The translations under genes were made by a program, and so were the position numbers. DNA of 64,000 bases from contig JAFGHK010000033.1 in NCBI GenBank assembly GCA_016930185.1, positions 4,034-68,033 of the forward strand, written 5' to 3'. The notes below the pieces were generated by a model. The model did no database searches. It had not been told where the DNA came from and saw nothing but the letters and a program-made list of their open reading frames with translations. Source of the stretch: Dehalococcoidales bacterium (GTDB lineage: Bacteria > Chloroflexota > Dehalococcoidia > Dehalococcoidales > RBG-16-60-22). Shown one piece after another: positions 50,301 through 62,058 of the stretch (positions are counted from its first letter, which is position 1; each line of letters opens with the position of its first letter).

Positions 50301-53300
50301 CGGCAACCTACTCACCAGTCAGGATCCCAACGGCAATACAACCACCTGGGCATTCGATACCACCTATCATGTTTATCCACTCACTAAGACTATGCCTTTA
50401 ATCGGCTCTGAAAGTTACACTTACGCCCCAGGCACTACCAACCTGCTATCAATGACAGATGTTAATGGGCAGACGACCACCTATGAATATGATACATTCC
50501 AGCGCCTGACTAAAGTCATTAAACCAGGAGATTCTTCCGCCAGTCCGTCGGTGGAATACCAGTACAACAACTGGGGCACCATCAACTACCAGAACATTAA
50601 AACGATAACCAAGGTAGATGCTACCACCTTCCTCTGGCAGACCCAGTACTTTGACGGGCTGGGGCGGGTAGTTCAAGTACATACCAACGGCGAGAGCGGC
50701 AATACCATTATTGCCAGTACCACAACCTTTAACAACCGGGGCATGGTGGACAGGCAATATGTGAGTCAAGATATCGCATCTATTCTTACCAGTTATCAAT
50801 CACCTGACGCCAGTTGGAAATATTCCACCTCAACATATGATGCTCTGGGGAGAGTAGTAACGCAGACCGGTGCCGACGGTACATCAATCAGCCATGATCA
50901 CAGCGTTGCCTGGCAGGATACGGTGACCAACCAGCGCGGCTTCAAGACGAGGTTCCTCTACGATGCTTTCCAACGTCTCGTTAAGGTAGAGGAGCTAAAC
51001 GCCAGCCACCAACTGTACGCCACTACGACCTATTACTACGACATTCTCGGCAATCTCATAGAGGTTTACGATAACAACAATAACACTACAGTCATGTTGT
51101 ACGACTGGCTTTCCCGCAAGACCGCTATGTCCGACCCCGATATGGGCGTCTGGTCTTACGGGTACGATAACAATGGCAACCTCGTTACCCAGACTGATGC
51201 TAAGAGCCAGACAATCACTATGACTTACGACGCCCTGAACCGGCTCGTGAGTAAAGTCTATCCTGTCGGTTCTAATATGACTAACGTTTACTACGTCTAC
51301 GATAGCACCGCAGGCGGTAACTACGGCAAAGGCCTACGTACCTCCATGACCGACGCTTCTGGAAATACGACCTATGTGTACGATAATCGCGGGCGACTGG
51401 TACAGGAAACCCGCGTTATAGATTCGATTGCTTATATCACTTCATTCACTTATGACGGCGCCAACCGGCCCGTCACCATCACCTACCCCACCGGTGAAGT
51501 AGTCACACAGACATATAACGGGCAAGGCCTCCCCTATTCCCTCTCCGGTAGCGCGGCAGGGAATCTCGTTACCGGCACATATTACAATAATCTGGGGTCT
51601 TTAACAGAAATCGACTTCGGCAACGGACTCAAGACAACTTACGGATATTATGATATGAACGGTATCAACGATACTACCGGCGGCTATTACGGCAAGCTCT
51701 GGGAAATCAAGACCCTGCCGCAGGTCGGCGGGGATGCCTTACAGGACGTCCAGCATACATGGGATGCTGCCGGCAATCTGGTAACGAGAGAGGATAAGTT
51801 AAATTCCATTACCGAAAATTTTGAATATGATTTCCTTGATAGATTAGTCAGCGGCTACACAGGGGAAAAGGATAACTGGCTTACCGGCTGGGCAAACAGG
51901 GTAAAGATTACCATCGCCTCTTCACAATTAGAAGGAGACCCAATAAACATCCCGGTCCTTATCCACATTAGCGCTAGCTGTGGCCAGGGTGGCCAAGACC
52001 TTACCGCTATCTTCGATGAATTAGGTGCTAACTATAAAAAATTGGCTGTCACCACCGATGATGGGCAAACCCAGCTCTACGTGGTAGTGGAAAAATGGGA
52101 TGCCGTTAACGAAGATGCCTTGCTGCGAGTCAGTAAAGAGGGCTGGCAAATCTCCAGTTCCGAGGATACAATCATCTATCTCTACTTCGATAACACCCAT
52201 GAAGATAACTCGAGTTATGTAATAGGCGAGTACTTCATTAACTTTTCAGTAATTGAATCACGGTTAAGAGAAGATATCACGATATTCAGCTTTTCGGAAA
52301 TAGAATCGCGTCCAAAAGCAAATGTGCGTGCTATCCTGGATAAAAAAATCACGGGTCCCACTCTCATAACCGGTGTTATGATAGGTCTTGTTTTTGGTAT
52401 TACACGTGACGGAGGCTCGGCTTCCGGCAACTATACGGAGTCCTATACCTATAACGAAATCGGCAATATAATGTCAAGGAACGGCGTCACTTACACCTAC
52501 GGGACTAAGCCCCATGCCGTCACATCCGTCGGCTCGATGACTTACAGCTACGACGCTAACGGCAACATGATTACCCGCGGCGAACAGACCTTAACCTGGG
52601 ATGCGGAAAACCGCCTCATAGCCGTCTCTGGTAACGGCACTACAGCCTTCTTTATTTGCGACAGCGACGGCAACCGCGTGAAGAAGCTAGAAAACGGTGA
52701 GACCACCATCTACGTTAACAAATACTATGAGAAGAACCTCACCACCGGCAATGTCACAACCAGCTACTATCTAGGGGGCAGGCTGGTGGCAACTAAAGAA
52801 AACGAGGTCTTAAGGTATGTCCACCAGGACCACCTGACCGGCACCTCTTTAATGACAGATAACACCGGCGCGCAAATAGGCGAGACGATGAAATACCTGC
52901 CCTTTGGAGAAACCCTCTCCGGCGCCTTGCCCACCGATAAAAAGTTTACCGGCCAGAGGCTTGACGCTACCGGGCTTTACTGTTACGGCGCAAGATACTA
53001 TGACGCCACCATAGGGAGGTTTACAAGCGCAGATACAGTAGTACAGAGCTATATCAATCCGCAAAGTCTTAATAGGTATTCATATACTTTCAATAATCCT
53101 CTTAGGTATATAGACCCTAGTGGAAATATAGTTGAAATTGGGGGGGTAGATGTCAGGGTTACTGAAACTGTAATGTCAGAAGGGGCTGCCGGTTGTTTTA
53201 TACCACCAGATCTAGCGAGTTCAATAGTCGACGCAGCCGAATCACCACTTTATCAGGCGTATGAGACTCTTTCCGCAGTAGAACCGCAATTAACAGATTA

Positions 53301-53841
53301 TCTTGAAACGTCTGATCTGATAACTTCGATAGGCATTGACACTGATACGCGGTTTAATGGTGTTTGTAAGCAACCCGAAGCAGGGGCATCTGGTGATATA
53401 GCTGTTGGTATAAGACCCGAAATGCTTGGAGATAGCGATTTCTTGGTCACTTTGTTAGGTCATGAGTTATTTCACGCTGCTATCGCTGATGATATGATCC
53501 ATATGGGATTTACTGATGACTGGTGGCTAAGAACTCCTTCAATAGCAAATGAACTGCTTGCGTATTCGTTTCAAAATAGAATTGGTAACGAAATTGGATA
53601 TGTGTGGGATGAGAATAATCCATTACACAAAGCGGTAATTGCTTTCGGTGGTGTTACACCTGTTAATATTTATAGTAGATTTGAAAGCCTTACCCAATCT
53701 TATATGGATATGTTTGGGACATCCAATCTTTGGCCTAATTACGGACACTATATAGGAGGCGGTATGAGTTGTAACGGTCCAAAACCCGATAATAATATGA
53801 ACAGCGTATTTTTTACACTGGCTGCCTGTAAAGTATGGTAA
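47362..53841 (+). CDS. secreted SpvB-N / YD-repeat / Rhs-core polymorphic toxin with a C-terminal HExxH domain
   Basis: 2159 aa. GGGGGAG lies upstream and a signal peptide is present (..LLPYGAPSVLGAQD). The SpvB-like motif is GLHSGTATYSYPLELPPGPGGFTPSVSLNYNSGSVDG..GIGWSL. There are dozens of YD repeats (YxYDxxGNL). The Rhs core reads YVHQDHLTGTS..KYLPFGE..FTGQRLDATGLYCYGARYYDATIGRFTSAD..NRYSYTFNNPLRYIDPSG, followed by a ~237-aa unrelated tail. Confidence 0.9.
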   Translation: MNGRIKFSQGLGICLFNVALAIILTCLLLPYGAPSVLGAQDERIPKKPTIIETQNAIVTPENETELSTSDKKIKIKIPKGTVDETVDFQLNKNLTPGSTGMKMVNFFELNVKEHNSENKVHQFKKNIEITIQHTQEELAGLDIDSLYLYYLDEDKGEWIPIPCEFDRKTLTLTAKFKHFSYFGEQANPLQSGPGKVTTAQVGLHSGTATYSYPLELPPGPGGFTPSVSLNYNSGSVDGMKNKRDVGSWVGIGWSLNLGRISYNAASGNYNIDLNGVSHKIVPNSDSIFYTQPEEYLKITKDGNTWSVYDKSGNYYRFGGTTDSEQYTDTSDYYRWDLSYWKDTNGNEATVTYVQDIWNNSVRSAYPEYLRYNNNLVEVHFLSSYYENGDYGPVRKDNPISYGTNPVPKNMENRQLDSIEIKVSGNLIRKYNFSYITTDRVYSSDYDGIYYSGKHMLMSITQIGTDGESSLSPTSFVYQYREVFRYANETEYTGNPGNPASITWPFLSAIDSGYGGSISFTYTQIPDTSVLNTWTRQAVTQKIINGGMGTTEIYSYAYTHNPQYKGVDWDQEFRGWNEVIETDADGNYLKHYFYTTGTISGKDAEKLTGKEYQTIWYDSANTLLKTKNYDWNRIDTSQNFTGSMTFYPDASPESSSVDGIVGETTKQSFASLVADVGDGSNDSIESYYICSLAADTVSNIWYNIFRGIFLFDTSGLPDNASITGATLSIYGYSKFDTVGWLPDINIYSSNPASNTTLVNGDYDSLGTVAFATAIGYNDWNTSGYNDFAFNSDGLNAISKTGISKFGTRNANYEVAGSPPTWASGQYYAMMGRFAESGEGYKPKLVVTYNMSSLYKVYLSNIEETIGTKTTRTEYVYDDYGNVITEKRHGDISTTDDDSTIHRVYYANNSTAYIVNKPARERVYATITEDVGGANLKKETFYYYDGNNALFTTPPTKGNLTRLEQKKDASNSISSYSTYDTYGNLLTSQDPNGNTTTWAFDTTYHVYPLTKTMPLIGSESYTYAPGTTNLLSMTDVNGQTTTYEYDTFQRLTKVIKPGDSSASPSVEYQYNNWGTINYQNIKTITKVDATTFLWQTQYFDGLGRVVQVHTNGESGNTIIASTTTFNNRGMVDRQYVSQDIASILTSYQSPDASWKYSTSTYDALGRVVTQTGADGTSISHDHSVAWQDTVTNQRGFKTRFLYDAFQRLVKVEELNASHQLYATTTYYYDILGNLIEVYDNNNNTTVMLYDWLSRKTAMSDPDMGVWSYGYDNNGNLVTQTDAKSQTITMTYDALNRLVSKVYPVGSNMTNVYYVYDSTAGGNYGKGLRTSMTDASGNTTYVYDNRGRLVQETRVIDSIAYITSFTYDGANRPVTITYPTGEVVTQTYNGQGLPYSLSGSAAGNLVTGTYYNNLGSLTEIDFGNGLKTTYGYYDMNGINDTTGGYYGKLWEIKTLPQVGGDALQDVQHTWDAAGNLVTREDKLNSITENFEYDFLDRLVSGYTGEKDNWLTGWANRVKITIASSQLEGDPINIPVLIHISASCGQGGQDLTAIFDELGANYKKLAVTTDDGQTQLYVVVEKWDAVNEDALLRVSKEGWQISSSEDTIIYLYFDNTHEDNSSYVIGEYFINFSVIESRLREDITIFSFSEIESRPKANVRAILDKKITGPTLITGVMIGLVFGITRDGGSASGNYTESYTYNEIGNIMSRNGVTYTYGTKPHAVTSVGSMTYSYDANGNMITRGEQTLTWDAENRLIAVSGNGTTAFFICDSDGNRVKKLENGETTIYVNKYYEKNLTTGNVTTSYYLGGRLVATKENEVLRYVHQDHLTGTSLMTDNTGAQIGETMKYLPFGETLSGALPTDKKFTGQRLDATGLYCYGARYYDATIGRFTSADTVVQSYINPQSLNRYSYTFNNPLRYIDPSGNIVEIGGVDVRVTETVMSEGAAGCFIPPDLASSIVDAAESPLYQAYETLSAVEPQLTDYLETSDLITSIGIDTDTRFNGVCKQPEAGASGDIAVGIRPEMLGDSDFLVTLLGHELFHAAIADDMIHMGFTDDWWLRTPSIANELLAYSFQNRIGNEIGYVWDENNPLHKAVIAFGGVTPVNIYSRFESLTQSYMDMFGTSNLWPNYGHYIGGGMSCNGPKPDNNMNSVFFTLAACKVW
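53125..53838 (+). other. variable C-terminal toxin domain of the Rhs protein (putative zinc metallopeptidase)
   Basis: It begins right after the DPSG core boundary (GAC CCT AGT GGA at 53113-53124). It contains LLGHELFHAA (HExxH) with a downstream ANELLAY that could supply a third ligand. Confidence 0.55.
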
Positions 53842-53880
53842 TATATAAAATAATGTTCCGGGGGTTGAGGGCTATAAAAG

Positions 53881-54465
53881 ATGACAAGTATCAAAAGAGC
53901 CTCGTTTTTACACTCAATTTCAATATTTCTTATTATGGCTTTCTTCCTCGGTATTATCATGACCGGGTGCAGTGGATATAAAGAAGTCACCTTAACCAGA
54001 AAAGGAATTCAGTTTTCTTTCGAATACCCTTCATCATACGAAGAGTTCTGTTATAGCTTCCAAAGTGAAGATTTTTACGTAGGACTCGTGCGGTATTCAG
54101 TTGATAGCCAGGAAAGGTTAGTAGATAGAAAAATTGATATATATATTTTTAAGACAGATATAGGGCGCCCTGATGCGACCTCATCCTTAAATTCATTTCT
54201 TGAAAACAGAGTCTTCGACTATGAAGAATTCCAGCTGCTTGAAAGGTCTTCAGTGAAAGTCTCCGGTATTGATGGGGAATTGATAATTTATTCTGGATAT
54301 TACGATATTGGATATTTTATTTCAGAGCATTTAAAGGTTTGGGCAGTATACCTTGATTATAAAGACATTATATGGATTTTAATTATTTCCTCCGCCATCG
54401 ATACTTCAGATGGAGCTGAAGCTGAATTTCAGCACTTTATTGATACTTTTAGATTTCTAAATTAA
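53881..54465 (+). CDS. hypothetical lipoprotein; positional candidate for the Rhs immunity protein
   Basis: 194 aa, starting 40 nt after the toxin stop on the same strand. The lipobox is GIIMTGCSG. It is AT-rich with no recognisable domain. Confidence 0.45.
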   Translation: MTSIKRASFLHSISIFLIMAFFLGIIMTGCSGYKEVTLTRKGIQFSFEYPSSYEEFCYSFQSEDFYVGLVRYSVDSQERLVDRKIDIYIFKTDIGRPDATSSLNSFLENRVFDYEEFQLLERSSVKVSGIDGELIIYSGYYDIGYFISEHLKVWAVYLDYKDIIWILIISSAIDTSDGAEAEFQHFIDTFRFLN

Positions 54466-54625
54466 CTTATTTCAGCACTTATTAACCAAAAGTCCCCCTC
54501 TCTTCCCTCAGGGCCTTTCTTTGTTTCTGATGGATACGTGGGAGAGTAGAATTCCCCGTCCAGAAAAAGCTGTCTTGGACATCCTACAAGCTTAGTCAGC
54601 TTTCTAAAAAGGCGATTATCGGTCG

Positions 54626-55333
54626 CTAATTTTCTGATTTACCTGAACTATCTTCAAACCTATACTCTGGTGCCATTCCCATTTTCGCTTGAGCTATAGC
54701 ACTCTGGCTAAACTTTTTCAGTAACTTTAAATTTTCCTTGTTGGTTTCCGCCCTTTTAGCTATCCATTGAATTATCCGTTCCTCTGGGATACCGATTTCC
54801 TGGGCAACTTCAATGGTCCGTGATGTTACTATAGTCGAGCGTTTGTCAGTCAAGTCAAGCTTAACCTCTATACCGCTGGCGATAGCATCCAACTCATTTA
54901 GTTCCTTTTCTTTATAGCTAATACCAGTTCGTTTATTGATATTGGTCTTTGGGAATGGTTCTTTTTTCTTCTCTAACGCTGCGCTTATTCTTGAATTAAG
55001 CATATCAAGACTGAAAGGTTTGACTATATAATCCAAAGCCCCTAGCTTCATAGATTCAACAGCAGTATTGACATCATCAATAGCGGTTATCATTATTATA
55101 ATTATAGACGAATCATATTTAGACTTTATCTCTTTTAGGACATCAATTCCCGATATCTCCGGCAATCTTATATCCAACAATGCAATATCAAATATGTCCT
55201 TTTCCATCTTGCGCAAGGCACTGTTCCCGTCAGAAGCGACTTCACAAAAGTACCCCAGATCATTCAAGTCCTCGGAGATAAGATCACATATAACTGGTTC
55301 ATCATCAACGATAAGAACACGGGGTTTATTCAT
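54626..55333 (-). CDS. response regulator (receiver domain) with an uncharacterised C-terminal domain
   Basis: 235 aa. The receiver reads RVLIVDDEPVICDLI..DIALLDIRLPEISG..DYIVKP. The C-terminal ~100 aa have no LuxR, OmpR or other HTH that I can recognise. Confidence 0.8.
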   Translation of the reverse strand: MNKPRVLIVDDEPVICDLISEDLNDLGYFCEVASDGNSALRKMEKDIFDIALLDIRLPEISGIDVLKEIKSKYDSSIIIIMITAIDDVNTAVESMKLGALDYIVKPFSLDMLNSRISAALEKKKEPFPKTNINKRTGISYKEKELNELDAIASGIEVKLDLTDKRSTIVTSRTIEVAQEIGIPEERIIQWIAKRAETNKENLKLLKKFSQSAIAQAKMGMAPEYRFEDSSGKSEN

Positions 55334-55500
55334 AATTTATCACTCTTTATTTCGTATTATTCCAGAGTCTATCAGAGTACTTCTCCTATGTCAATAACTA
55401 AATAATGAGTCAATTTGAGTGACAAGTAGTGTCATCAAATGCATGGTAGTCCTCTAATAGATTACGCCTTTTTACATTATATATACTTGACTTTTGCCAT

Positions 55501-55929
55501 TTGTCTATGTATATTGTTTCCATAATGATACGCACCGGCAATAATTTAGGTAAACTAATCAAACAAAAGAGGGTTTCAGTTCCATTAACTTTATGTGAGT
55601 TGGGTAGCAGTTCGGGCGTTTCTCCATCCCATCTCGGTAGAATTGAGCGGGGTGAGCGTCTCCCTTCAGCACGAGTCCTGCGAAAGATTGCTAAGCCTTT
55701 GGGTTTTAAAGAAGAAGAATTATTTATGATAGCCGGATTTTTATCTAGTCCATCCAGCGATCAGAAAAATCCTTCTGGTAGCTATCATTATTCTTCTAAA
55801 CTTGACCCATTTGTTGCCAATGTATTATCTCAAGAACCTGCAGAAGTTCAACGTGCAGTAATAGGTATTCTCAGTATGCTTAAAGTCATTTCGAAAACCA
55901 ATAAAAATAAAGCCAAGCCAAATAATTGA
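55501..55929 (+). CDS. XRE-family helix-turn-helix transcriptional regulator
   Basis: The HTH reads LGKLIKQKRVSVPLTLCELGSSSGVSPSHLGRIERGERLPSARVLRKIAKPLG. The start codon is uncertain (TTG at 55501 or an internal ATG). Confidence 0.75.
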   Translation: MSMYIVSIMIRTGNNLGKLIKQKRVSVPLTLCELGSSSGVSPSHLGRIERGERLPSARVLRKIAKPLGFKEEELFMIAGFLSSPSSDQKNPSGSYHYSSKLDPFVANVLSQEPAEVQRAVIGILSMLKVISKTNKNKAKPNN

Positions 55930-55952
55930 ATTTATTAGGAGGTAGGCTACAC

Positions 55953-56171
55953 ATGAAATCCAAAGCACTAAAGCAGTTGGTCAGGGAAATCTTCAGTGAT
56001 GAAAAAACCAAACAGCAATTCTTATCAAATCCAGATAGTGTTATCTCGCAATACCCTTTAACTAAACAGGAGAAACAAGCAATATTAAATACACACGCTA
56101 AACTCGGATTAGCAACCTCCAATTCAGGGCAACTGGAAGCAGTCATTGGCCCTATGGGTACTTGGTCATAA
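55953..56171 (+). CDS. small ComX-like pheromone/RiPP precursor candidate (72 aa, single Trp at position -2)
   Basis: AGGAGG lies 8-10 nt upstream of the ATG at 55953. The product is MKSKALKQLVREIFSDEKTKQQFLSNPDSVISQYPLTKQEKQAILNTHAKLGLATSNSGQLEAVIGPMGTWS. It has a helical, charged leader-like N-terminus and a Gly/Ser/Thr-rich C-terminus ending in the only Trp. It lies 22 nt upstream of the ComQ-like gene. Confidence 0.55.
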   Translation: MKSKALKQLVREIFSDEKTKQQFLSNPDSVISQYPLTKQEKQAILNTHAKLGLATSNSGQLEAVIGPMGTWS

Positions 56172-56193
56172 TGTCGCGCCATCATCTTACTAA

Positions 56194-57153
56194 ATGTGGC
56201 AAGATAGGCAATCAAGGCTTCTCTCGGAAGAAATAATTACGATTTTATCGTCCTCAATTGACGAGGCTGATCTATACCATTTGGTTAAGGAATCCTTAAC
56301 TCAAACTGGGCGAGGATTTGCTATCAAATCCAAAACTCAAAATTATAAACCGTGGCCACTTTTAGTTCTAGTAGCATGCGAGGCTATTTCCGGAAAATAT
56401 GAACATGCACTACCGGCTGCTGCTGCTTTGCAACTACATATGGCCGCTGGTGATATCTTCGATGATATCGAAGATGCAGATTCGAAAGATTCAATACCAG
56501 CAAGATACGGTATTACCATAGCTACCAATATTGCTACTACTATTTTAACTTTAGCAGAGAAAGCGATCACGCAACTCAAGAAAAAAGGTATTGATGACCA
56601 CGTAATAGTCAGTATTATAGATATAGTAAATTCTCTTTGTATTACATCATGCGTCGGTCAACATTTAGATTTGTCTTTAGCCTCAAATATTACTCTTTCA
56701 GAAGACATGTATTTCAGAATTATAGGCATGAAATCGGCCTCGCAAATAGAATGTGCTTGTCATGTCGGGGCATTGTTGACTACTACAGATCAAGACTTAG
56801 TAGATACTTTCGCCAAATTCGGTCATAATCTCGGAATGGCATCTCAAATTGCGAATGACATCCAGGGTATTACTACTGGAATTGACCTTTTTAAAAAAAG
56901 AATGACTTTACCTGTAATATATGCTTTAAATCAGGCAAATAAAGAGGATCGCTATCAGCTAAAATTCATATTCAGCAGACAGTCTGGACCCATAACCGAT
57001 TTAGAAAAATTAAGAAATATGATAACCAATAATGGCGCTATCTATTATTCGATAATAAAGATGGAACTCTTCAAACAACAGGCTCTTGATATTCTCACCA
57101 AAATAAAGGAGAAAGGTATTAATATAGAACGAATGAAGTTATTTCTTGAATAA
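56194..57153 (+). CDS. divergent polyprenyl-synthetase-fold protein, ComQ-like (candidate peptide Trp prenyltransferase)
   Basis: 319 aa. The first Asp-rich motif is AAGDIFDDIEDADS, with no following RRG. GQHLDL is present. The second Asp-rich motif is degenerate (QIANDIQG instead of DDxxD). KKRMTLPVIYAL is also present. Confidence 0.6.
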   Translation: MWQDRQSRLLSEEIITILSSSIDEADLYHLVKESLTQTGRGFAIKSKTQNYKPWPLLVLVACEAISGKYEHALPAAAALQLHMAAGDIFDDIEDADSKDSIPARYGITIATNIATTILTLAEKAITQLKKKGIDDHVIVSIIDIVNSLCITSCVGQHLDLSLASNITLSEDMYFRIIGMKSASQIECACHVGALLTTTDQDLVDTFAKFGHNLGMASQIANDIQGITTGIDLFKKRMTLPVIYALNQANKEDRYQLKFIFSRQSGPITDLEKLRNMITNNGAIYYSIIKMELFKQQALDILTKIKEKGINIERMKLFLE

Positions 57154-57168
57154 ACAACCGAGGTATAT

Positions 57169-59580
57169 ATGAGTCGAGTCCATTATTTCTTCAATAAACT
57201 GTCCGCAGACCGTGGTTTGTTTAGAGGAGTACTAATTTCTTTATTCGCGTTCTGTATTTTAGTTATATCTCTGACATTCTTTGCTTTAAGTATTCCTGAA
57301 CCTTATATGGGTGCTATGCTCTCAAAAAGTACTCAAGGCTGGGTTGTCGAAAGCGTAGATACAAGTGGTCTAGCAAGCGAAGCTGGGATACAGGTAGGAG
57401 ATAAACCGACTATAATCAACGGTCAACCAGCCCAAGCATTCTTAGAAAAATATGAGAATGCCGAAGTGGTTTTTGGAAGATTAATTAATGAGTTAGCCGT
57501 GATTGATAACGATGGTCAAGTGAAATCGGTAACGCTTGAGAACGCTTCACCTCCTGCTAGGACTTTAGTTGAAATATTAACATGGTTTATTGTCTGTTTC
57601 GTGTGTTGGGCAACCGGATTCTATGTATTTTTTAAAAGACCAGGTAATCTTACAGCATTATTGTTGTGCTTTTGTGGGTTAGCTTTCGGATTGGCTCTTA
57701 GTGCGAACATGGCAGTAGAAAGGAGCATTCCTTCTGCACTTTGGTTTGAGATTACTGCATCTGTCATTGGACCTTGGTTGCTGCTACATTTTTTCCTAGT
57801 TATACCTGAAGAAAGAGCTTGGCCTCGCCACAATCCCCTCGTATATCTTATTTATATCCCTGCACTAATAACACTAATACTTTTTCCTATCATCGGTTAT
57901 GCAAATGGCCAACCTTTGCCAGGTTTTCGTATTTTCAGGCTTTTTGAATACTGCGCTGGATTTGTTTTGGTAGCTGGTGTAGCAGTAATTAATTACATAT
58001 ACTCTATCTCACCCAGAACACGACAACAAATGAAGATAGTTTTAATAAGCTGTCTAATAGCTCTGATTCCATTTCTAGTTTTTAATATTCTACCGTGGAC
58101 AATATCGGGACAAACTATCATAACACCGGGATTTAGTATGCTATTTCTTGCCTTCATACCATTAGGTATGGGATATGCTGTGATAACTCAAAAATTAATG
58201 GATATTGATATCGTCATTAGAAGAGGTATGATTTATGGTCTAATTACACTAATCATGGCAGCTATTGTATCCGCAGCTATCTTCTTGGTCGTAAATTTTA
58301 ATACATCAATTGGAACCCCAATACAAATTCTTGCGGCTCTGATAGTGGGAGGGCTAGCTGCGGTTCTCTTTGGACCCATAAAAAAGAGGATAGAAATTCT
58401 GATAGACAAGCTATTTTACAAAGACAGATATGATTATCGTCAGGTAATCCAAAGTCTAAGTAACGCTCTCAACTCCGCAAATAATCTGACCGGAATATCA
58501 CGTCTAATAGTCGGGACTACGGTAAATACTCTGAATTTATCAGGAGGCTGCCTATTCATCAAGAAACACCCGGACTCTTATAAGATCGCTGCTTCCCAAG
58601 GAATATTTATGGATGTTGTAAGGCAAGAATATCTGCGAAAATTGATATCTGATACATCTAGTACAAATAGCCTAGTTGAATTTCCTAATTTGGCAACAAC
58701 CATTGACTCGAATACTGCATTTATAGTTCGCCTAGCAATGGGTGGAAAAGAAATCGGTATCCTTTTACTTTCTCATAAAATATCTAAGCAACAATTTTCA
58801 TCCGATGACCTGTACCTAATACAAGGAATATCTTCTATTTCTTCTATAGCGTTATATAGTAATATGCTTATTCACGATGTTAGCATTAGAGATACTTTCG
58901 TCTCCATCGCATCTCATGAACTACGCACGCCGCTGACTGCTATAACTGGTTATGCCGAACTCCTATTACGACGAAATCCTCCTGAAGGTACTAGAAAGAA
59001 ATGGCTTGAGAATATCCTTGATAACGGGCAAAACATAAGTAGAATGGCCAATGATTTACTCAATGTCACTCGTATTCAATCAGGTAAGCTCGCTCTAAAG
59101 TTACAGCGTTTAAATGTATCCAAGATTTTAGATGAACGACTAAATTTAGCGCGAGAAAATTCTAATATACATAAGTTTTCTATTCAAATAGAACCCGATC
59201 TCCCTGATGTGGTGGTTGATCGGGATAAATTTGGTCAGATCATAACGAATCTTCTAAACAATGCTATAAAATATAGCCCTAAAGGTGGTCGGATTACTTT
59301 GTCAGCAAATTATAACTCATTAAATTTTTGCCTAGTCATAAGTGTTGCCGACGAAGGTATTGGTATTAGCCCGGATGATACAAAGTCTCTTTTCACAACT
59401 TTCCACCGGATACAAAGGTCGGAGACACAAAGTATTAGAGGAAGCGGTCTTGGACTTTTTATAGCCAAAGAATGGACTGAGGCTATGGCTGGTAAAATTT
59501 GGGTAGAAAGTGAGTTGAACAAAGGGTCAACATTCTTTGTTTCAATTCCGGTAGAAATGACCAATCCTTATATCTTATAA
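57169..59580 (+). CDS. polytopic membrane sensor histidine kinase with an extracytoplasmic PDZ-like domain (ComP-like position)
   Basis: 803 aa. An N-terminal TM helix is followed by a PDZ-like segment (GWVVESVDTSGLASEAGIQVGDKPTIINGQP) and about 9 further TM helices. A GAF-like linker precedes the H-box SHELRTPLTAITGY and a HATPase_c domain (NNAIKYSP..DEGIGI..GSGLGL). Confidence 0.85.
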   Translation: MSRVHYFFNKLSADRGLFRGVLISLFAFCILVISLTFFALSIPEPYMGAMLSKSTQGWVVESVDTSGLASEAGIQVGDKPTIINGQPAQAFLEKYENAEVVFGRLINELAVIDNDGQVKSVTLENASPPARTLVEILTWFIVCFVCWATGFYVFFKRPGNLTALLLCFCGLAFGLALSANMAVERSIPSALWFEITASVIGPWLLLHFFLVIPEERAWPRHNPLVYLIYIPALITLILFPIIGYANGQPLPGFRIFRLFEYCAGFVLVAGVAVINYIYSISPRTRQQMKIVLISCLIALIPFLVFNILPWTISGQTIITPGFSMLFLAFIPLGMGYAVITQKLMDIDIVIRRGMIYGLITLIMAAIVSAAIFLVVNFNTSIGTPIQILAALIVGGLAAVLFGPIKKRIEILIDKLFYKDRYDYRQVIQSLSNALNSANNLTGISRLIVGTTVNTLNLSGGCLFIKKHPDSYKIAASQGIFMDVVRQEYLRKLISDTSSTNSLVEFPNLATTIDSNTAFIVRLAMGGKEIGILLLSHKISKQQFSSDDLYLIQGISSISSIALYSNMLIHDVSIRDTFVSIASHELRTPLTAITGYAELLLRRNPPEGTRKKWLENILDNGQNISRMANDLLNVTRIQSGKLALKLQRLNVSKILDERLNLARENSNIHKFSIQIEPDLPDVVVDRDKFGQIITNLLNNAIKYSPKGGRITLSANYNSLNFCLVISVADEGIGISPDDTKSLFTTFHRIQRSETQSIRGSGLGLFIAKEWTEAMAGKIWVESELNKGSTFFVSIPVEMTNPYIL

Positions 59581-59901
59581 AGTTGCATATAAAAATTGTT
59601 TATTACCCAACACTGCCACGCTTAGCCATAACAAGATCAGTTTTTGATATGGCGAATATCGGTATTAACAGTCAATATAAAGTCAACCACCGCATAAACA
59701 ACATACTTATCCTTCTATCACCGGATTAGAAGGTTAGAAAATCAATCATTTAACAGGCCTCTAAAAGGGTGGGTGCTTGTCCACATTTAGTGACAGGTGT
59801 ATAATTAGCCATGCCAAAAAGACTTCTTTTATTGGAAAGGTTAAACTTTAACAGGTAAATTTAATCTATTATGAAAAGTACTTTTACATTGTGAGGTTTA
59901 A

Positions 59902-60384
59902 GTGAAACCATTAATATTGTTAATAGGAGGCATCAATTCTGGTAAGTCTACTATCATTTCCAGTTTAACAGGTTGTCCATCTCATAATTTCAGAGAATTA
60001 GTCAGAGATAGATCTACTGGGCGACAAATCTACGTCATTTCAAGTTCTCCACAAGAAGATAGTCTTTCCCAAGGAGAGCTTGACCAAATTTTAGAAACAG
60101 TCCATCGGCGACGAAGAGTTATCGGTCTGGTAATAAGCATCCAGCCAACATACCCCCGGACCCGTCTTTCTCTTGAGAATATTATCCAAACCGTACAAGT
60201 AAATAGTCACTTCACGATCTTCGCATTCATTCTTGATCCGCCGTATTCAAGTGATGGTTCGATTGACTTAACTGATACCATTAATAGGTTGGCTTCTTTT
60301 GGAGTTGTTTCCCGTTATCTTGATGGGCGTCGTTTCGCTTACCTAAATGCTTCAGACATAAGACAAATAGTAGGTGTACCATAA
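59902..60384 (+). CDS. hypothetical P-loop NTPase
   Basis: GTG start, 160 aa, Walker A LIGGINSGKST. No further assignment is possible. Confidence 0.45.
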   Translation: MKPLILLIGGINSGKSTIISSLTGCPSHNFRELVRDRSTGRQIYVISSSPQEDSLSQGELDQILETVHRRRRVIGLVISIQPTYPRTRLSLENIIQTVQVNSHFTIFAFILDPPYSSDGSIDLTDTINRLASFGVVSRYLDGRRFAYLNASDIRQIVGVP

Positions 60385-60433
60385 GTTTTCTCTTGTTTTT
60401 TATAGAAAGGCTATATATACTTTGTCTATCGAT

Positions 60434-60502
60434 AGATTTAATGAAAAAGTTGATTTTATATGGAGTGTAGCTAATTTATTGCGCGGTCCCTACAAACCAG
60501 CC
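60434..60502 (+). pseudogene. short N-terminal remnant of a type I restriction-modification methylase (hsdM-like)
   Basis: The translation RFNEKVDFIWSVANLLRGPYKPA matches the HsdM N-terminal signature (..FIWs.AdlLRG.yk..). The similarity stops abruptly about 50 nt before the convergent TetR gene. Confidence 0.4.
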
Positions 60503-60555
60503 CTTTTAAGTTATGAACCTGATATTTTTGAAATGAGGCATCAGAGGCATCAAAC

Positions 60556-61074
60556 TTATAAACTTAAACTTTTTATCAGAATATCCGTCCGTTTTTCTAA
60601 TATTTCGATTGAGGGTTTATCATCCAGTATTCCTTTGTAAGAGAATACGATAACCTCGGCCAAATCAAAACCGATTAATGGGACGAGTGATTTTATAAAG
60701 TCCCCCCTTAATAATTGTTCACTTGTCTGGATACTTTTAACAGGTTTAAGCCAGATATTTGGCAAGGGGGATTTATAAATGATCCGGTGAGGGTCTATTA
60801 TCCATATGTCGATTATCTTGCGTAATTTTTGCTTAGCCGGCAGATCAGAATCAAGTACTTCTTGAGATTGGCGCAGATAATTTTTATGTTTCTCGTCCAT
60901 CATGGCAAAGAAAAATTCCTGCTTGCTTTTGAAATAGGTATATATCAGGGCTCTTGATATCCCCGCTTTTTGGGCCACATCATCGAAGGTCGTCTTATCA
61001 TAACCGTACTCTGCAAAACAGGCAGATGCTGCATCGATAATTTGGCTTCGTGTGATGCTTCTTTTATCTTTCAT
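60556..61074 (-). CDS. TetR/AcrR family transcriptional regulator
   Basis: 172 aa with the N-terminal HTH TRSQIIDAASACFAEYGYDKTTFDDVAQKAGISRALIYTYFKSKQEFF. Confidence 0.85.
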   Translation of the reverse strand: MKDKRSITRSQIIDAASACFAEYGYDKTTFDDVAQKAGISRALIYTYFKSKQEFFFAMMDEKHKNYLRQSQEVLDSDLPAKQKLRKIIDIWIIDPHRIIYKSPLPNIWLKPVKSIQTSEQLLRGDFIKSLVPLIGFDLAEVIVFSYKGILDDKPSIEILEKRTDILIKSLSL

Positions 61075-61272
61075 CAGCAGGCCCCACTTTCGCGCGTTAG
61101 GTTTCTATATAATAATTAGACATATTGACAATATTTGTCTAATATGTAAACATAAATCAACATTCCCTTAATACTTAACAGTAGTTAAGACAGATTGTCA
61201 ATCCATTCATCAACTTATCCTAACAAAAAAGAAAAAACGGAAATTATACAAAGATAAAATAGGAGGGACGCG

Positions 61273-62058
61273 ATGAAACACCAGGAAGCTTTTTTTAAAG
61301 GATACAAGGATTATAATATTTACCATCAATCCTGGCTCCCTGAAAAGAAACCAACCGCTATTTTGCTTGTTGCCCACGGTTTTGGCGAGCATAGCGGCCG
61401 GTACCTTAATGTGGTGAACCATTTCGTGCCAAAAGGTTTTGCTGTTTACGCTTTGGACCACCGCGGTCACGGGCGGTCAGACGGCGAGCGTGTAAATGTA
61501 GATAGTTTCCAGGATTATGTTAAAGACCTCAAGACCTATTTTAATATGGTAAGGAAAGAAAACCCCAAAGAAAAAATATTCCTCATCGGGCACAGTATGG
61601 GGTCAGTTATTTCATTACTTTATACCATCGAATACCAAAAAGAGCTAAATGGATTGGTCACTTCCGGCGGCGGCCTCACAAAACCCACCGATCCTCCTAT
61701 GTCACTACCCAAACCCGGCGAAGGCCTATCCACAGCTATGCTTAGCCGGGATCCGGCAGTCATTAGTGCTTATGAAAACGACCCTCTGGTCTACCATGGG
61801 CCGGTACCTACCGGATTTGCCATGTTCAAAGAAATATCAACATTATATGACACGGTACCACAAATAAAGCTACCGATATTGGTCATGGCCGGCAACGGCG
61901 GCCCGGATGGTGCGCGGAGCCGTGTCTTGCATGAGCGTATTACCTCAAAAGACAAGACTCTCAAACTTTATGAAGGTCTGCTCCATGAAATTTTCAACGA
62001 ACCGGAATACCCGCAGGTCATGGCTGATATGGAGAAATGGCTAACCGCACATATTTAG
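61273..62058 (+). CDS. alpha/beta hydrolase (monoacylglycerol lipase / lysophospholipase type)
   Basis: 261 aa with HGFGEHSGRY, the nucleophile elbow GHSMGS and a C-terminal His (GLLHEI). Confidence 0.8.
   Translation: MKHQEAFFKGYKDYNIYHQSWLPEKKPTAILLVAHGFGEHSGRYLNVVNHFVPKGFAVYALDHRGHGRSDGERVNVDSFQDYVKDLKTYFNMVRKENPKEKIFLIGHSMGSVISLLYTIEYQKELNGLVTSGGGLTKPTDPPMSLPKPGEGLSTAMLSRDPAVISAYENDPLVYHGPVPTGFAMFKEISTLYDTVPQIKLPILVMAGNGGPDGARSRVLHERITSKDKTLKLYEGLLHEIFNEPEYPQVMADMEKWLTAHI

What the first reader, a model, noticed from the sequence alone, without database searches (positions are those of the whole stretch)
54626..59580. ComQXPA-like prenylated-peptide signalling locus in X-Q-P order with a different kinase class
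Four genes are packed with 15-23 nt gaps on one strand. They are an XRE regulator (55501-55929), a 72-aa peptide ending ..GPMGTWS (55953-56171), a divergent polyprenyl-synthetase-fold protein (56194-57153) and an 803-aa polytopic histidine kinase (57169-59580). A response regulator is transcribed divergently (54626-55333). The only well-known system combining a small Trp-terminal peptide, an isoprenyl-synthase homologue, a multi-TM kinase and a response regulator is Bacillus ComQ-ComX-ComP-ComA. There ComQ prenylates a Trp near the ComX C-terminus. This locus differs in several ways. The peptide gene precedes the ComQ-like gene. The kinase has a classical HisKA H-box (SHELRTPL) plus a PDZ-like ectodomain rather than a HisKA_3 ComP. 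The response regulator lacks a LuxR output domain. The surrounding genome does not look like a Firmicute. If it functions, this would be a previously undescribed lineage of prenyl-peptide quorum sensing.
Basis: partly seen in the sequence, partly recalled or inferred. Interest (0 to 1): 0.88.

Follow-up and report, generated by a model that had tools for sequence, protein, structure and literature searches.

The report
Prenylated-peptide signalling locus in Dehalococcoidia
This stretch of an uncultured Dehalococcoidales genome encodes a small tryptophan-bearing peptide, a ComQ-type enzyme predicted to attach a lipid (prenyl) group to it, and a membrane sensor kinase related to Bacillus ComP. 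It looks like a Bacillus-style peptide pheromone system in a distant phylum, shared by many relatives in strain-specific "dialects".

Summary
The window comes from a Dehalococcoidales MAG (Chloroflexota).

- **Q (56194-57153)** is not an ordinary prenyl-diphosphate synthase. It keeps the first Asp-rich motif (FDDIEDAD). It carries the ComQ pseudo-second motif (QIANDIQG; Bacillus ComQ has QIANDHxG). It has lost the GGKRxRP isopentenyl-diphosphate site. It groups with Bacillus ComQ, apart from canonical synthases.
- **X (55953-56171)** is an NHLP/LigA-clan precursor. Across 73 distinct homologues the leader is conserved, one Trp is invariant and the residues around it are hypervariable.
- **Synteny:** X-Q-kinase order held in 76/76 loci with upstream DNA and 72/72 with downstream DNA.
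- **Kinase:** its sensor (TM1, PDZ-like loop, about nine more TM helices) is homologous to the ComP sensor (hhalign 96%). It is fused to a HisKA core instead of HisKA_3.
- **Response regulator:** it carries an uncurated helix-turn-helix output domain.
- **Divergence** is mosaic, as in Bacillus pherotypes. Signal, enzyme and sensor differ strongly, while the kinase core and the regulators stay conserved.

Prenylation and signalling remain untested. The concept has partial precedent in PalPXQ (2023) and StheQ/StheX (Chloroflexi, 2026 preprint). I therefore call this a new variant of a known kind.

The parts
54626..55333 (-). Response regulator (235 aa), divergently transcribed. It has a REC domain (residues 6-116, phospho-acceptor Asp54) and a helical C-terminal domain of about 95 aa with a helix-turn-helix-like motif (TIEVAQEIGIPEERIIQWIAKR).
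   Evidence: Pfam Response_reg 8.6e-28. D10, D11, D54, T83 and K105 are invariant in 41 homologues. The AF2 model has REC pLDDT about 90 and C-terminal helices at 140-217 with pLDDT 65-84. A profile of the C-terminal domain hits homeodomains (best E about 1e-3) and assorted HTH families, all below curated cut-offs. The RR is 88% identical in L005 while Q in the same locus is 56%.
55334..55506 (.). Divergent intergenic region between the RR gene and the XRE-X-Q-P operon. It presumably holds the promoters and regulator binding sites.
   Evidence: Consensus promoter-like hexamers lie at 55487-55515 (+) and 55394-55366 (-). The number of such sites in the region equals the shuffled expectation, so this is not evidence of function.
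55501..55929 (+). XRE-family HTH regulator (140-142 aa; the start is TTG 55501 or ATG 55507). It is the first gene of the operon.
   Evidence: Pfam HTH_3 3.5e-10. An orthologue sits in the same position in L004/L005, L025 and L049 and is 81% identical in L005.
55937..55942 (+). Shine-Dalgarno sequence AGGAGG, 10 nt upstream of the X start codon.
   Evidence: Read directly from the sequence.
55953..56171 (+). X: a 72-aa precursor peptide. The leader (about residues 1-60, NHLP/LigA clan) ends in the conserved QLEA motif. The core is VIGPMGTWS, with the invariant Trp71 (codon 56163-56165) second from the C-terminus.
   Evidence: One search gives the ORF. In 73 distinct homologues the Trp column is invariant, the flanking columns have entropy 2.4-3.6 bits and most leader columns are below 1.5. 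41/42 members match Pfam LigA, 32/42 NF038399 (NHLP clan), 13/42 TIGR04509 and 9/42 TIGR03793, all below threshold. The codon-position pattern is that of a coding gene, and there is a single copy in the window.
56194..57153 (+). Q: a ComQ-family (trans-isoprenyl-diphosphate-synthase-fold) enzyme of 319 aa, the predicted peptide tryptophan prenyltransferase.
   Evidence: polyprenyl_synt 2.9e-25; all NCBIfam synthase models score far below their cut-offs. 28% identity to Bacillus ComQ over 226 aa, E 9e-20 (28-31% by tblastn). NJ split of canonical synthases versus Q plus ComQ: 196/200, or 173/200 with the motif columns masked.
56458..56481 (+). First aspartate-rich motif, F89-DDIEDAD-96 (prenyl-diphosphate/Mg2+ site).
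   Evidence: F89, D90, D91, E93, D94 and D96 are invariant in 30 family members. Bacillus ComQ has IFDDIEDKDN.
56845..56868 (+). Pseudo-second aspartate-rich motif, Q218-IANDIQG-225 (the Asn replaces the first Asp of DDxxD).
   Evidence: Q218, N221, D222 and G225 are invariant. Bacillus ComQ has QIANDH(H/Y)G. The equivalent Asn-to-Asp mutants lose 90% (ComQ) and 98% (StheQ) of activity (10.64898/2026.08.29.745113).
57169..59580 (+). P: polytopic sensor histidine kinase (803 aa). Layout: TM1 (about 15-41), extracytoplasmic PDZ-like beta-rich loop (about 45-125), about nine further TM helices (130-400), a GAF-like linker (about 400-560), a HisKA DHp (574-639, His583, codon 58915-58917) and HATPase_c (684-796).
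   Evidence: Pfam. Hydropathy gives about 10 TM segments with the same layout as ComP. The AF2 model of residues 1-400 has pLDDT 80 and pTM 0.78. hhalign of the sensor region alone against the ComP sensor: Prob 95.9%, E 5e-9, 310 columns, against at most 2.3% for reversed or block-shuffled controls. Full-length collinear BLASTP to ComP: E 4e-15.

Best explanation
The locus is a ComQXPA-type peptide-pheromone module, arranged as RR <- | -> XRE-X-Q-P.

Proposed mechanism:
1. X is translated as a 72-aa precursor. Its NHLP-like leader docks on the Q homodimer.
2. Q binds a prenyl diphosphate (geranyl, farnesyl or geranylgeranyl; chain length unknown) through its first Asp-rich motif and Mg2+. It transfers the prenyl group to the indole of Trp71, probably at C3 with pyrroloindoline ring closure, as in ComX, PalX and StheX.
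3. An unidentified protease removes the leader near the conserved QLEA motif, and the short lipopeptide leaves the cell.
4. Outside, the lipopeptide is recognised by the ComP-type sensor of P (PDZ-like loop plus TM bundle).
5. P autophosphorylates on His583 and passes the phosphate to Asp54 of the divergently encoded regulator. That regulator's helix-turn-helix domain, together with the XRE protein, then sets transcription.

The signal core, Q and the sensor part of P co-diversify into strain-specific 'pherotypes', while the output half is conserved.

What is shown here: gene content, motifs, homologies, synteny and divergence patterns. What is inferred: prenylation, processing and export, ligand-receptor pairing, the kinase-regulator partnership, and density-dependent function.
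For: **Q is ComQ-like, not a synthase.**
- FARM and QxxNDxxG are invariant in the family and identical in pattern to Bacillus ComQ.
- The GGKRxRP IPP-binding region is replaced: Trp in 67/88 ND-type sequences and Phe in ComQ, whereas 28/37 DD-type sequences keep the Lys and Arg.
- Q and ComQ fall together on the non-canonical side of a split with 98% NJ bootstrap (86% with the motif columns masked).
- The pseudo-SARM Asn is functionally required in ComQ and StheQ.

**X is a genuine, conserved precursor.**
- The leader is conserved and belongs to the NHLP clan; the Trp is invariant; the core is hypervariable.
- 52 of 72 precursors contain only that one Trp.
- StheX, which is prenylated on its penultimate Trp, has the same overall design.

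**Linkage.** X-Q-P is present in 76/76 and 72/72 testable loci, embedded in different genomic neighbourhoods. The order also holds in distant relatives with Q at only 30-35% identity.

**Receptor.** The sensor is homologous to the ComP sensor and survives controls. JGI pipelines independently labelled homologues 'ComQ' (P0053) and 'ComP' (P0406 and P0412).

**Pherotype-like mosaic.**
- Window versus L005: RR 88%, XRE 81%, kinase residues 551-800 at 78-92% (mostly about 90%), kinase 1-150 at 40-54%, Q 56%, X cores unrelated.
- Family-wide mean pairwise difference: X core 0.67, Q 0.44, kinase DHp+CA 0.30.
- Within the kinase and X this repeats the Bacillus gradient: variable sensor N-terminus and ComX C-terminus, conserved kinase core and leader. 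The gene-level order resembles, but does not exactly match, ComA>ComP>ComQ>ComX (PMC4008528).
Against: - There is no experimental evidence for this locus or this family.
- No exporter or leader peptidase is encoded nearby. This is also true in Bacillus.
- X does not match Pfam ComX. A profile comparison of the X leader with a Bacillus ComX is insignificant (Prob 16%).
- All NHLP/LigA matches are below curated cut-offs.
- The kinase-regulator pairing is inferred only from adjacency. The regulator's DNA-binding assignment rests on weak matches.
- Raw similarity of Q to ComQ (75 bits) is no greater than to the best canonical synthase in the PDB (66 bits). The grouping therefore rests on shared derived motifs and on a neighbour-joining tree built from a query-biased sample.
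- PalX-type products have no proven signalling role either.
- Many homologues have five residues after the Trp, so the final product may differ between subfamilies.
Confidence: 0.68

Rival explanations
1. X and Q make a prenylated RiPP that is not an autoinducer, for example an antimicrobial, a surfactant-like lipopeptide or a membrane-anchored peptide. The adjacent kinase and regulator would then only control its production or immunity in response to another cue.
For: - The NHLP-type leader is typical of RiPP natural products.
- The PalPXQ cluster has the same composition, and no signalling role has been shown for it.
- Prenylated Trp peptides have membrane and antimicrobial activity (PMC13290415).
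- One homologue (L006) carries three tandem core repeats, like cyanobactin-type product precursors.
Against: - The kinase sensor is homologous specifically to the pheromone-binding module of ComP.
- The sensor diverges in step with X and Q while the kinase core does not. That is expected for a ligand-receptor pair and not for a kinase that senses an unrelated cue.
- No immunity, transporter or further tailoring genes are conserved next to X-Q-P.
Confidence: 0.2
2. Q is an ordinary short-chain prenyl-diphosphate synthase (annotated as GGPP synthase or 'polyprenyl synthetase'). On this reading the small ORF is an unrelated or spurious reading frame.
For: - The Pfam polyprenyl_synt match and the best NCBIfam hits are IdsA and GGPP synthases.
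- The top PDB sequence hits are synthases.
- Public annotations call the homologues GGPP synthases.
Against: - All NCBIfam equivalog scores are 4-5 times below their cut-offs.
- The SARM first Asp is Asn and the last is Gly, invariantly.
- The IPP-binding GGKRxRP motif is absent.
- Q separates from canonical synthases with 98% / 86% bootstrap.
- The small ORF is conserved in 76/76 loci with a coding-type substitution pattern.
Confidence: 0.03
3. The cassette in this particular genome is a recently acquired, possibly inactive, mobile island and not a working part of the cell's regulation.
For: - The locus lies in an AT-rich island of about 8 kb (GC 0.34-0.41, 53.5-61.4 kb) in a window of about 0.50 GC.
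- The flanking genes differ between related loci.
- At least one relative (L096) has a kinase split into two ORFs.
Against: - All five ORFs here are intact and keep all catalytic residues: FARM, pseudo-SARM, His583, Asp54.
- No integrase, transposase or repeat boundary was seen among the ORFs of the island.
- A lower GC content of the cassette is seen in only some relatives.
Confidence: 0.07

Closest known systems
Bacillus subtilis-group ComQXPA quorum-sensing locus
   Same: - The enzyme is of the ComQ type: FARM IFDDIEDxD and pseudo-SARM QIANDxxG, 28-31% identity.
- The precursor is about 70 aa, with the modified Trp close to a hypervariable C-terminus.
- The polytopic kinase has a homologous TM1 / PDZ-like-loop / multi-TM sensor.
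- A response regulator is present.
- The gradient of polymorphism is the same: signal, enzyme and sensor vary, the output half is conserved.
   Different: - Gene order is X-Q-P with a divergent regulator, instead of Q-X-P-A on one strand.
- The kinase core is HisKA (SHELRTPL), not HisKA_3.
- The regulator output is an uncurated HTH, not LuxR/GerE.
- An extra XRE regulator is present.
- The X leader is NHLP/LigA-clan and does not match Pfam ComX.
- The host is Dehalococcoidia rather than Firmicutes. The 2014 census found none outside Firmicutes (PMC4008528).
StheQ/StheX of Sphaerobacter thermophilus (Chloroflexi; bioRxiv 10.64898/2026.08.29.745113)
   Same: - Same phylum.
- A ComQ homologue with FARM, a pseudo-SARM (NDxxx) and a Gln one helical turn before the Asn.
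- A precursor of about 70 aa with an ordered leader and a short disordered core.
- The experimentally prenylated Trp is second from the C-terminus, as Trp71 is here. The residues named in the paper (I62, G63, T64, G66, W68 of 69) resemble IGPMGTWS.
   Different: - stheX lies downstream of stheQ.
- The paper mentions no kinase or regulator and states that the biological role is unknown.
- StheQ has NDxxD where this family has NDxxG.
PalP-PalX-PalQ cluster of Paenibacillus alvei (PMC10853753)
   Same: - A three-gene set of histidine kinase, NHLP-type precursor with a Trp acceptor, and synthase-fold prenyltransferase, with X immediately before Q.
- The leader enhances modification.
- A conserved Gln lies next to the second motif.
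   Different: - PalQ keeps Asp residues at the second motif (D200, D204) and forms its own sequence cluster.
- PalQ needs the Trp to be the very last residue. Here the Trp is followed by one residue (32 of 72 variants) or five (34 of 72).
- The kinase gene precedes X in the Pal cluster.
Canonical trans-isoprenyl diphosphate synthases (FPP/GGPP synthases; Pfam PF00348)
   Same: The all-helical fold family, the first DDxxD motif and a K..TLP region. These are the best sequence hits in the PDB.
   Different: The second DDxxD motif and the GGKRxRP IPP site are lost, and Q forms a separate clade.

Membership tests
ComQ-family / trans-IDS-like peptide tryptophan prenyltransferases | Isoprenyl-diphosphate-synthase fold with a conserved first aspartate-rich motif (DDxxD) | tested here: met
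   polyprenyl_synt 2.9e-25. F89-DDIEDAD is invariant.
ComQ-family / trans-IDS-like peptide tryptophan prenyltransferases | Pseudo-second motif: Asn replaces the first Asp (NDxxx), with a Gln one helical turn upstream | tested here: met
   Q218-IA-N221-D222-IQ-G225 is invariant in the family and has the same pattern as Bacillus ComQ. The feature is defined.
ComQ-family / trans-IDS-like peptide tryptophan prenyltransferases | Adjacent gene for a small precursor with an acceptor Trp near the C-terminus | tested here: met
   76/76 loci; the Trp is invariant.
ComQ-family / trans-IDS-like peptide tryptophan prenyltransferases | Catalyses prenyl transfer to the Trp indole of the peptide | not testable with these tools
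   Needs co-expression or an in vitro assay with LC-MS/MS.
Canonical chain-elongating trans-IPP synthase | Second DDxxD motif and the GGKRxRP IPP-binding region | tested here: not met
   NDIQG stands in place of DDxxD, and YKPWP in place of GKRxRP. All NCBIfam equivalog scores are far below their cut-offs.
ComX precursor (Pfam PF05952) | Match to the ComX family profile | tested here: not met
   No ComX hit for any of 42 members at E<=0.01. hhalign against Bacillus ComX gives Prob 16%.
NHLP-clan RiPP leader peptides (TIGR03793, TIGR04509, NF038399; Pfam LigA-like) | Leader matches the family profiles | tested here: inconclusive
   41/42 match LigA (best 9e-8), 32/42 NF038399 (best 3e-7), 13/42 TIGR04509 and 9/42 TIGR03793. 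All are below curated cut-offs.
ComP-type pheromone sensor kinase | N-terminal sensor: TM1, extracytoplasmic loop of about 90 aa, then about 9 further TM helices, homologous to ComP | tested here: met
   hhalign Prob 95.9%, E 5e-9 over 310 columns, against at most 2.3% in the controls. Matching hydropathy layout.
ComP-type pheromone sensor kinase | HisKA_3 (PF07730) dimerisation/phospho-acceptor domain | tested here: not met
   The domain is HisKA PF00512, 1.6e-17, with H-box SHELRTPL. A distant relative, L097, does have HisKA_3.
ComA-type response regulator | REC domain plus a LuxR/GerE HTH output | tested here: not met
   Pfam finds REC only. The C-terminal domain is an uncurated HTH-like helical domain.
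comQXPA locus as defined in the 2014 census (PMC4008528) | Four adjacent genes in the order Q-X-P-A on one strand | tested here: not met
   The order is (RR, minus strand) XRE-X-Q-P.
comQXPA locus as defined in the 2014 census (PMC4008528) | Polymorphism gradient: ComX C-terminus, ComQ and the ComP N-terminus variable; the ComP core and ComA conserved | tested here: met
   compared.
PalPXQ-type cluster | The acceptor Trp is the C-terminal residue, and the enzyme keeps the Asp residues of the second motif | tested here: not met
   The Trp is followed by at least one residue in all 72 variants. N221 stands at the Asp position.

The most novel reading that the evidence does not exclude
X-Q-P cassettes would form an ancient, cross-phylum family of prenyl-peptide pheromone systems. 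Bacillus ComQXPA would be one rearranged branch of it.

In uncultured Dehalococcoidia the cassette would be widespread: more than 120 clusters at 90% identity and 84 at 50%. It would have diversified into many mutually unintelligible pherotypes. That would give this environmentally dominant, hard-to-culture class its first identified cell-cell signalling system.

It would also show that the ComP-type lipopeptide sensor is a portable module, usable with either a HisKA or a HisKA_3 kinase core.
Probability: 0.5. Interest if true: 0.8.

Novelty: new variant of a known kind. Interest (0 to 1): 0.64.

Why it matters
ComX-type signalling was long thought to be confined to Bacillus and a few other Firmicutes.

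If this reading is right, three things follow.
- A complete signal-enzyme-receptor-regulator module of that type is common in Dehalococcoidia. These are abundant sediment and aquifer bacteria about whose social behaviour essentially nothing is known.
- The 73 natural peptide variants, each with a matched enzyme and sensor, would be a ready-made data set for studying how lipopeptide-receptor specificity evolves.
- The enzymes would be a panel of Trp prenyltransferases that tolerate one or five residues after the Trp, which is of interest for peptide lipidation.

Synthetic pheromones might also help cultivate or manipulate these organisms.

Tried and rejected
- **Fold searches.** The regulator model returned only receiver-domain hits. 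The sensor model (pLDDT 80) returned only weak GPCR-like helical-bundle matches (E>=0.003, TM<=0.37). Neither helped. The PDZ assignment therefore rests on weak Pfam hits and on the beta-rich loop in the model.
- **X leader versus Bacillus ComX.** The profile comparison is not significant. I do not claim homology of the leaders despite the similar L..EKEKKAIL stretch.
- **Strict monophyly of 'ND'-type enzymes.** This failed (0/100 bootstraps). Eight sequences with a DD second motif also lack the IPP site and sit among the ND-type. Their pattern (QxxDDxxD) fits what is reported for PalQ. The informative split is canonical versus all others.
- **Genome-collection scan.** With one protein as query it found only one close relative plus Bacillus ComQ genes. 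L013 (Paludibacter) turned out to be a canonical synthase with GGKRIRP, and I used it as the outgroup.
- **Promoter and terminator scan.** The counts do not exceed the shuffled expectation.
- **Literature.** Searches for ComQ, ComX or ComP together with Chloroflexota or Dehalococcoidia found nothing beyond the StheQ preprint.
- **Sequences I could not obtain.** StheQ, PalQ and ChrPC could not be fetched with the remaining caps.
- **Look-up of the NCBI protein P0001** by exact sequence failed.

Full report
**1. Observation**

All five ORFs are present at the stated coordinates. The peptide's real start is the ATG at 55953, which lies 10 nt after an AGGAGG.
- an XRE HTH;
- a polyprenyl_synt-fold protein;
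- a HisKA + HATPase_c kinase with weak PDZ matches near the N-terminus;
- a REC-only regulator.

Identical proteins in NCBI come from a Dehalococcoidales MAG (P0001; P0271). The locus sits in an AT-rich island of about 8 kb (GC 0.34-0.41, 53.5-61.4 kb) inside a window of about 0.50 GC.

**2. The enzyme Q**

Q has a large family. More than 120 clusters show 54-85% identity, nearly all of them 317 aa long. In the 50%-identity library, 84 representatives score E<1e-30.

In an alignment of 30 members, F89-DD-E-D-D96 and Q218..N221-D222..G225 are invariant.

A genome scan with peptide patterns from Q pulled out bona fide Bacillus comQXPA loci (ORFs). Bacillus ComQ reads IFDDIEDKDN and QIANDH(H/Y)G, against IFDDIEDADS and QIANDIQG here. 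Identity is 28% over 226 aa by BLASTP (E 9e-20) and 28-31% by tblastn.

The literature defines ComQ-family enzymes by exactly this FARM plus pseudo-SARM (NDxxx) pattern, with a Gln one turn upstream. The Asn-to-Asp mutants of ComQ and StheQ lose 90% and 98% of activity.

The GGKRxRP region I motif binds IPP in chain-elongating synthases (established knowledge of the family). It is kept in 28 of 37 DD-type hits. It is replaced in the ND-type sequences, with Trp in 67/88 and Phe in ComQ.

In a neighbour-joining tree of 126 sequences, the split '30 canonical synthases | 96 others including Q, its family, distant relatives and Bacillus ComQ' has 196/200 bootstrap support. With the three motif regions masked it has 173/200.

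Caveats:
- the tree is NJ only;
- the sample is biased towards the query;
- Q is about as similar overall to the best canonical synthase in the PDB as it is to ComQ.

**3. The peptide X**

A leader HMM found a homologous ORF immediately upstream of Q in every locus that has the DNA, 76/76. There are 73 distinct sequences.
- The leader (MKSQALQELVKKIF.DEKTK.QF.SNPDSVLSQF.LTEQEKKAVL.THAKLGL...QLEA) is conserved.
- One Trp column is invariant.
- The three residues before the Trp and the one after it are the most variable positions (2.4-3.6 bits).
- 52/72 precursors contain no other Trp.
- Two tail types exist: Trp plus one residue, as here (32 variants), and W-x-(A/S)-P-x-P (34 variants).
- Codon-position variability (0.27/0.18/0.52) shows purifying selection on a real protein.
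- The leader matches the NHLP/LigA-like clan of RiPP leaders in most members, always below curated thresholds. PalX is described as an NHLP-type precursor.

X does not match Pfam ComX, and comparison with Bacillus ComX is not significant.

StheX, from another Chloroflexi member, is 69 aa with an ordered leader and a disordered core. It is prenylated on its penultimate Trp, which is the design of the window peptide.

**4. The kinase P**

P aligns end to end with Bacillus ComP (E 4e-15).

When the comparison is restricted to the sensor region, with no catalytic domains, a profile of 30 family members matches the ComP sensor with Prob 95.9% and E 5e-9 over 310 columns. Reversed or block-shuffled ComP alignments reach at most 2.3%.

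Both proteins have TM1, a loop of about 90 aa and about nine further hydrophobic segments. The AF2 model (pLDDT 80) shows a beta-rich domain at residues 49-122 between TM1 and the bundle. No solved structure resembles it.

So the PDZ-like loop is shared with ComP. What differs is the DHp: HisKA here (SHELRTPL, His583) and HisKA_3 in ComP.

A distant relative (L097/L098, Q 30% identical, high GC) has X-Q-P with a HisKA_3 kinase followed by a REC-GerE regulator. Another (L096, 31%) has X-Q-P with HisKA. The sensor module evidently combines with either core.

**5. The regulators**

The RR has all the receiver-domain catalytic residues. Its conserved helical C-terminal domain has a motif, TIEVAQEIGIPEERIIQWIAKR, that resembles helix-turn-helix or homeodomain recognition helices. 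The matches are weak but consistent. No curated family covers this domain.

At least two cassette architectures exist:
- a divergent RR plus XRE (window, L004/5, L025, L049);
- a same-strand RR plus an HTH_17-REC protein, with an extra REC downstream (L001 and many others).

**6. Pherotype-like mosaic**

Comparison of the window with L005:

| Part | Identity |
|---|---|
| RR | 88% |
| XRE | 81% |
| Kinase 551-800 | 78-92%, mostly about 90% |
| Kinase 1-150 | 40-54% |
| Q | 56% |
| X leader | 69% |
| X core | unrelated |

. L025 has an RR that is 94-96% identical but a Q at only 58%.

Over 29 complete loci, the mean pairwise difference is 0.67 for the X core, 0.60 for TM1, 0.48 for the loop, 0.44 for Q, 0.30 for DHp+CA and 0.32 for the leader.

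Within the kinase and within X this is the gradient described for Bacillus: the ComX C-terminus and the ComP N-terminus are the most variable parts. The gene-level order resembles ComA>ComP>ComQ>ComX, though here Q as a whole diverges more than X as a whole. The pattern is the strongest indirect argument that X is the ligand of P.

**7. Interpretation and novelty**

The best reading is a ComQXPA-type prenyl-peptide pheromone module (confidence about 0.68). The main rival is a non-signalling prenylated RiPP (about 0.2).

The kind of system is known:
- ComQXPA;
- PalPXQ, 2023;
- StheQ/StheX, a 2026 preprint that explicitly extends ComQ-like systems to Chloroflexi.

The following were not found in the searchable literature:
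- this X-Q-P family in Dehalococcoidia;
- its size;
- the ComP-type sensor fused to a HisKA core;
- the novel regulator output;
- the pherotype-like diversification.

The 2014 census found no ComQXPA-like locus outside Firmicutes. I therefore rate the finding a new variant of a known kind, of solid but not extreme interest.

Noticed in passing
L006:5680-5973 (also L007:3-191): One homologous X precursor carries three tandem core units (MDGPWSAP / MEATLEGPWSAP / LEATLEGPWSAPEP), each preceded by the LEA-type motif. This is a multi-core precursor in the manner of cyanobactins. It suggests that LEA(T/A)L marks the processing or recognition site.
   Followed up: partly
window 53500-61400: An AT-rich island (GC 0.34-0.41, against about 0.50 elsewhere) contains the whole cassette plus a lipoprotein-like ORF, a small P-loop protein (59902-60384) and a TetR regulator (60556-61074). 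This may indicate horizontal acquisition. The cassette has lower GC than its flanks in only some related loci.
   Followed up: partly
window 47362-53841 and 53881-54465: A giant 2159-aa RHS-repeat protein with an SpvB-like N-terminal region and a divergent C-terminal end, so probably a polymorphic toxin. It is followed directly by a 194-aa ORF with a lipobox-like signal (…IMTGCSG) and no Pfam match, which may be its immunity protein.
   Followed up: partly
L097:1046-4887 and L098:1022-5192: A high-GC MAG has X-Q-P-A in that order, with a PDZ/GAF/HisKA_3 kinase and a REC-GerE regulator. That is ComP/ComA-type partners behind an X-before-Q pair. Its X ends in ...DSVRWP. This arrangement links the Dehalococcoidia cassette to the Bacillus one.
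   Followed up: partly
L001:4370-9770 and many other loci: A second cassette architecture. The RR with the same C-terminal domain is on the same strand, upstream. It is followed by an HTH_17-REC protein in place of the XRE, and a stand-alone REC protein overlaps the kinase stop codon.
   Followed up: no
window 56194-56280: The NCBI record annotates Q as 290 aa (P0001, 91% coverage). The first 29 residues (MWQ.RQ..L...) are nevertheless conserved across the family, so the 319-aa start at 56194 is the better call even though no obvious Shine-Dalgarno sequence precedes it.
   Followed up: partly
window 54626-54910 (RR residues about 140-235): The regulator's C-terminal domain defines a large uncurated family. 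458 full-length relatives score E<=1e-10, all with REC as their only Pfam hit. W190 is invariant, as is the terminal ...SEN/SQN tail.
   Followed up: partly
L096:4954-7109: In this distant relative the kinase is split into two ORFs (340 + 337 aa) at the end of the TM bundle. The cause is either a frameshift (pseudogene) or an assembly error.
   Followed up: no
P0129, P0164, P0212, P0227, P0229, P0230, P0245, P0269: Eight relatives keep a DD second motif (for example LIQIADDLSDF) but lack the IPP-binding region, and they cluster with the ND-type enzymes. Their QxxDDxxD pattern fits what is published for PalQ, so they may be PalQ-like peptide prenyltransferases.
   Followed up: no
P0087: One close Q homologue (56% identity) is labelled 'Candidatus Bathyarchaeia archaeon' in NCBI. 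On a 2-kb contig this is more likely a binning error than an archaeal occurrence.
   Followed up: no
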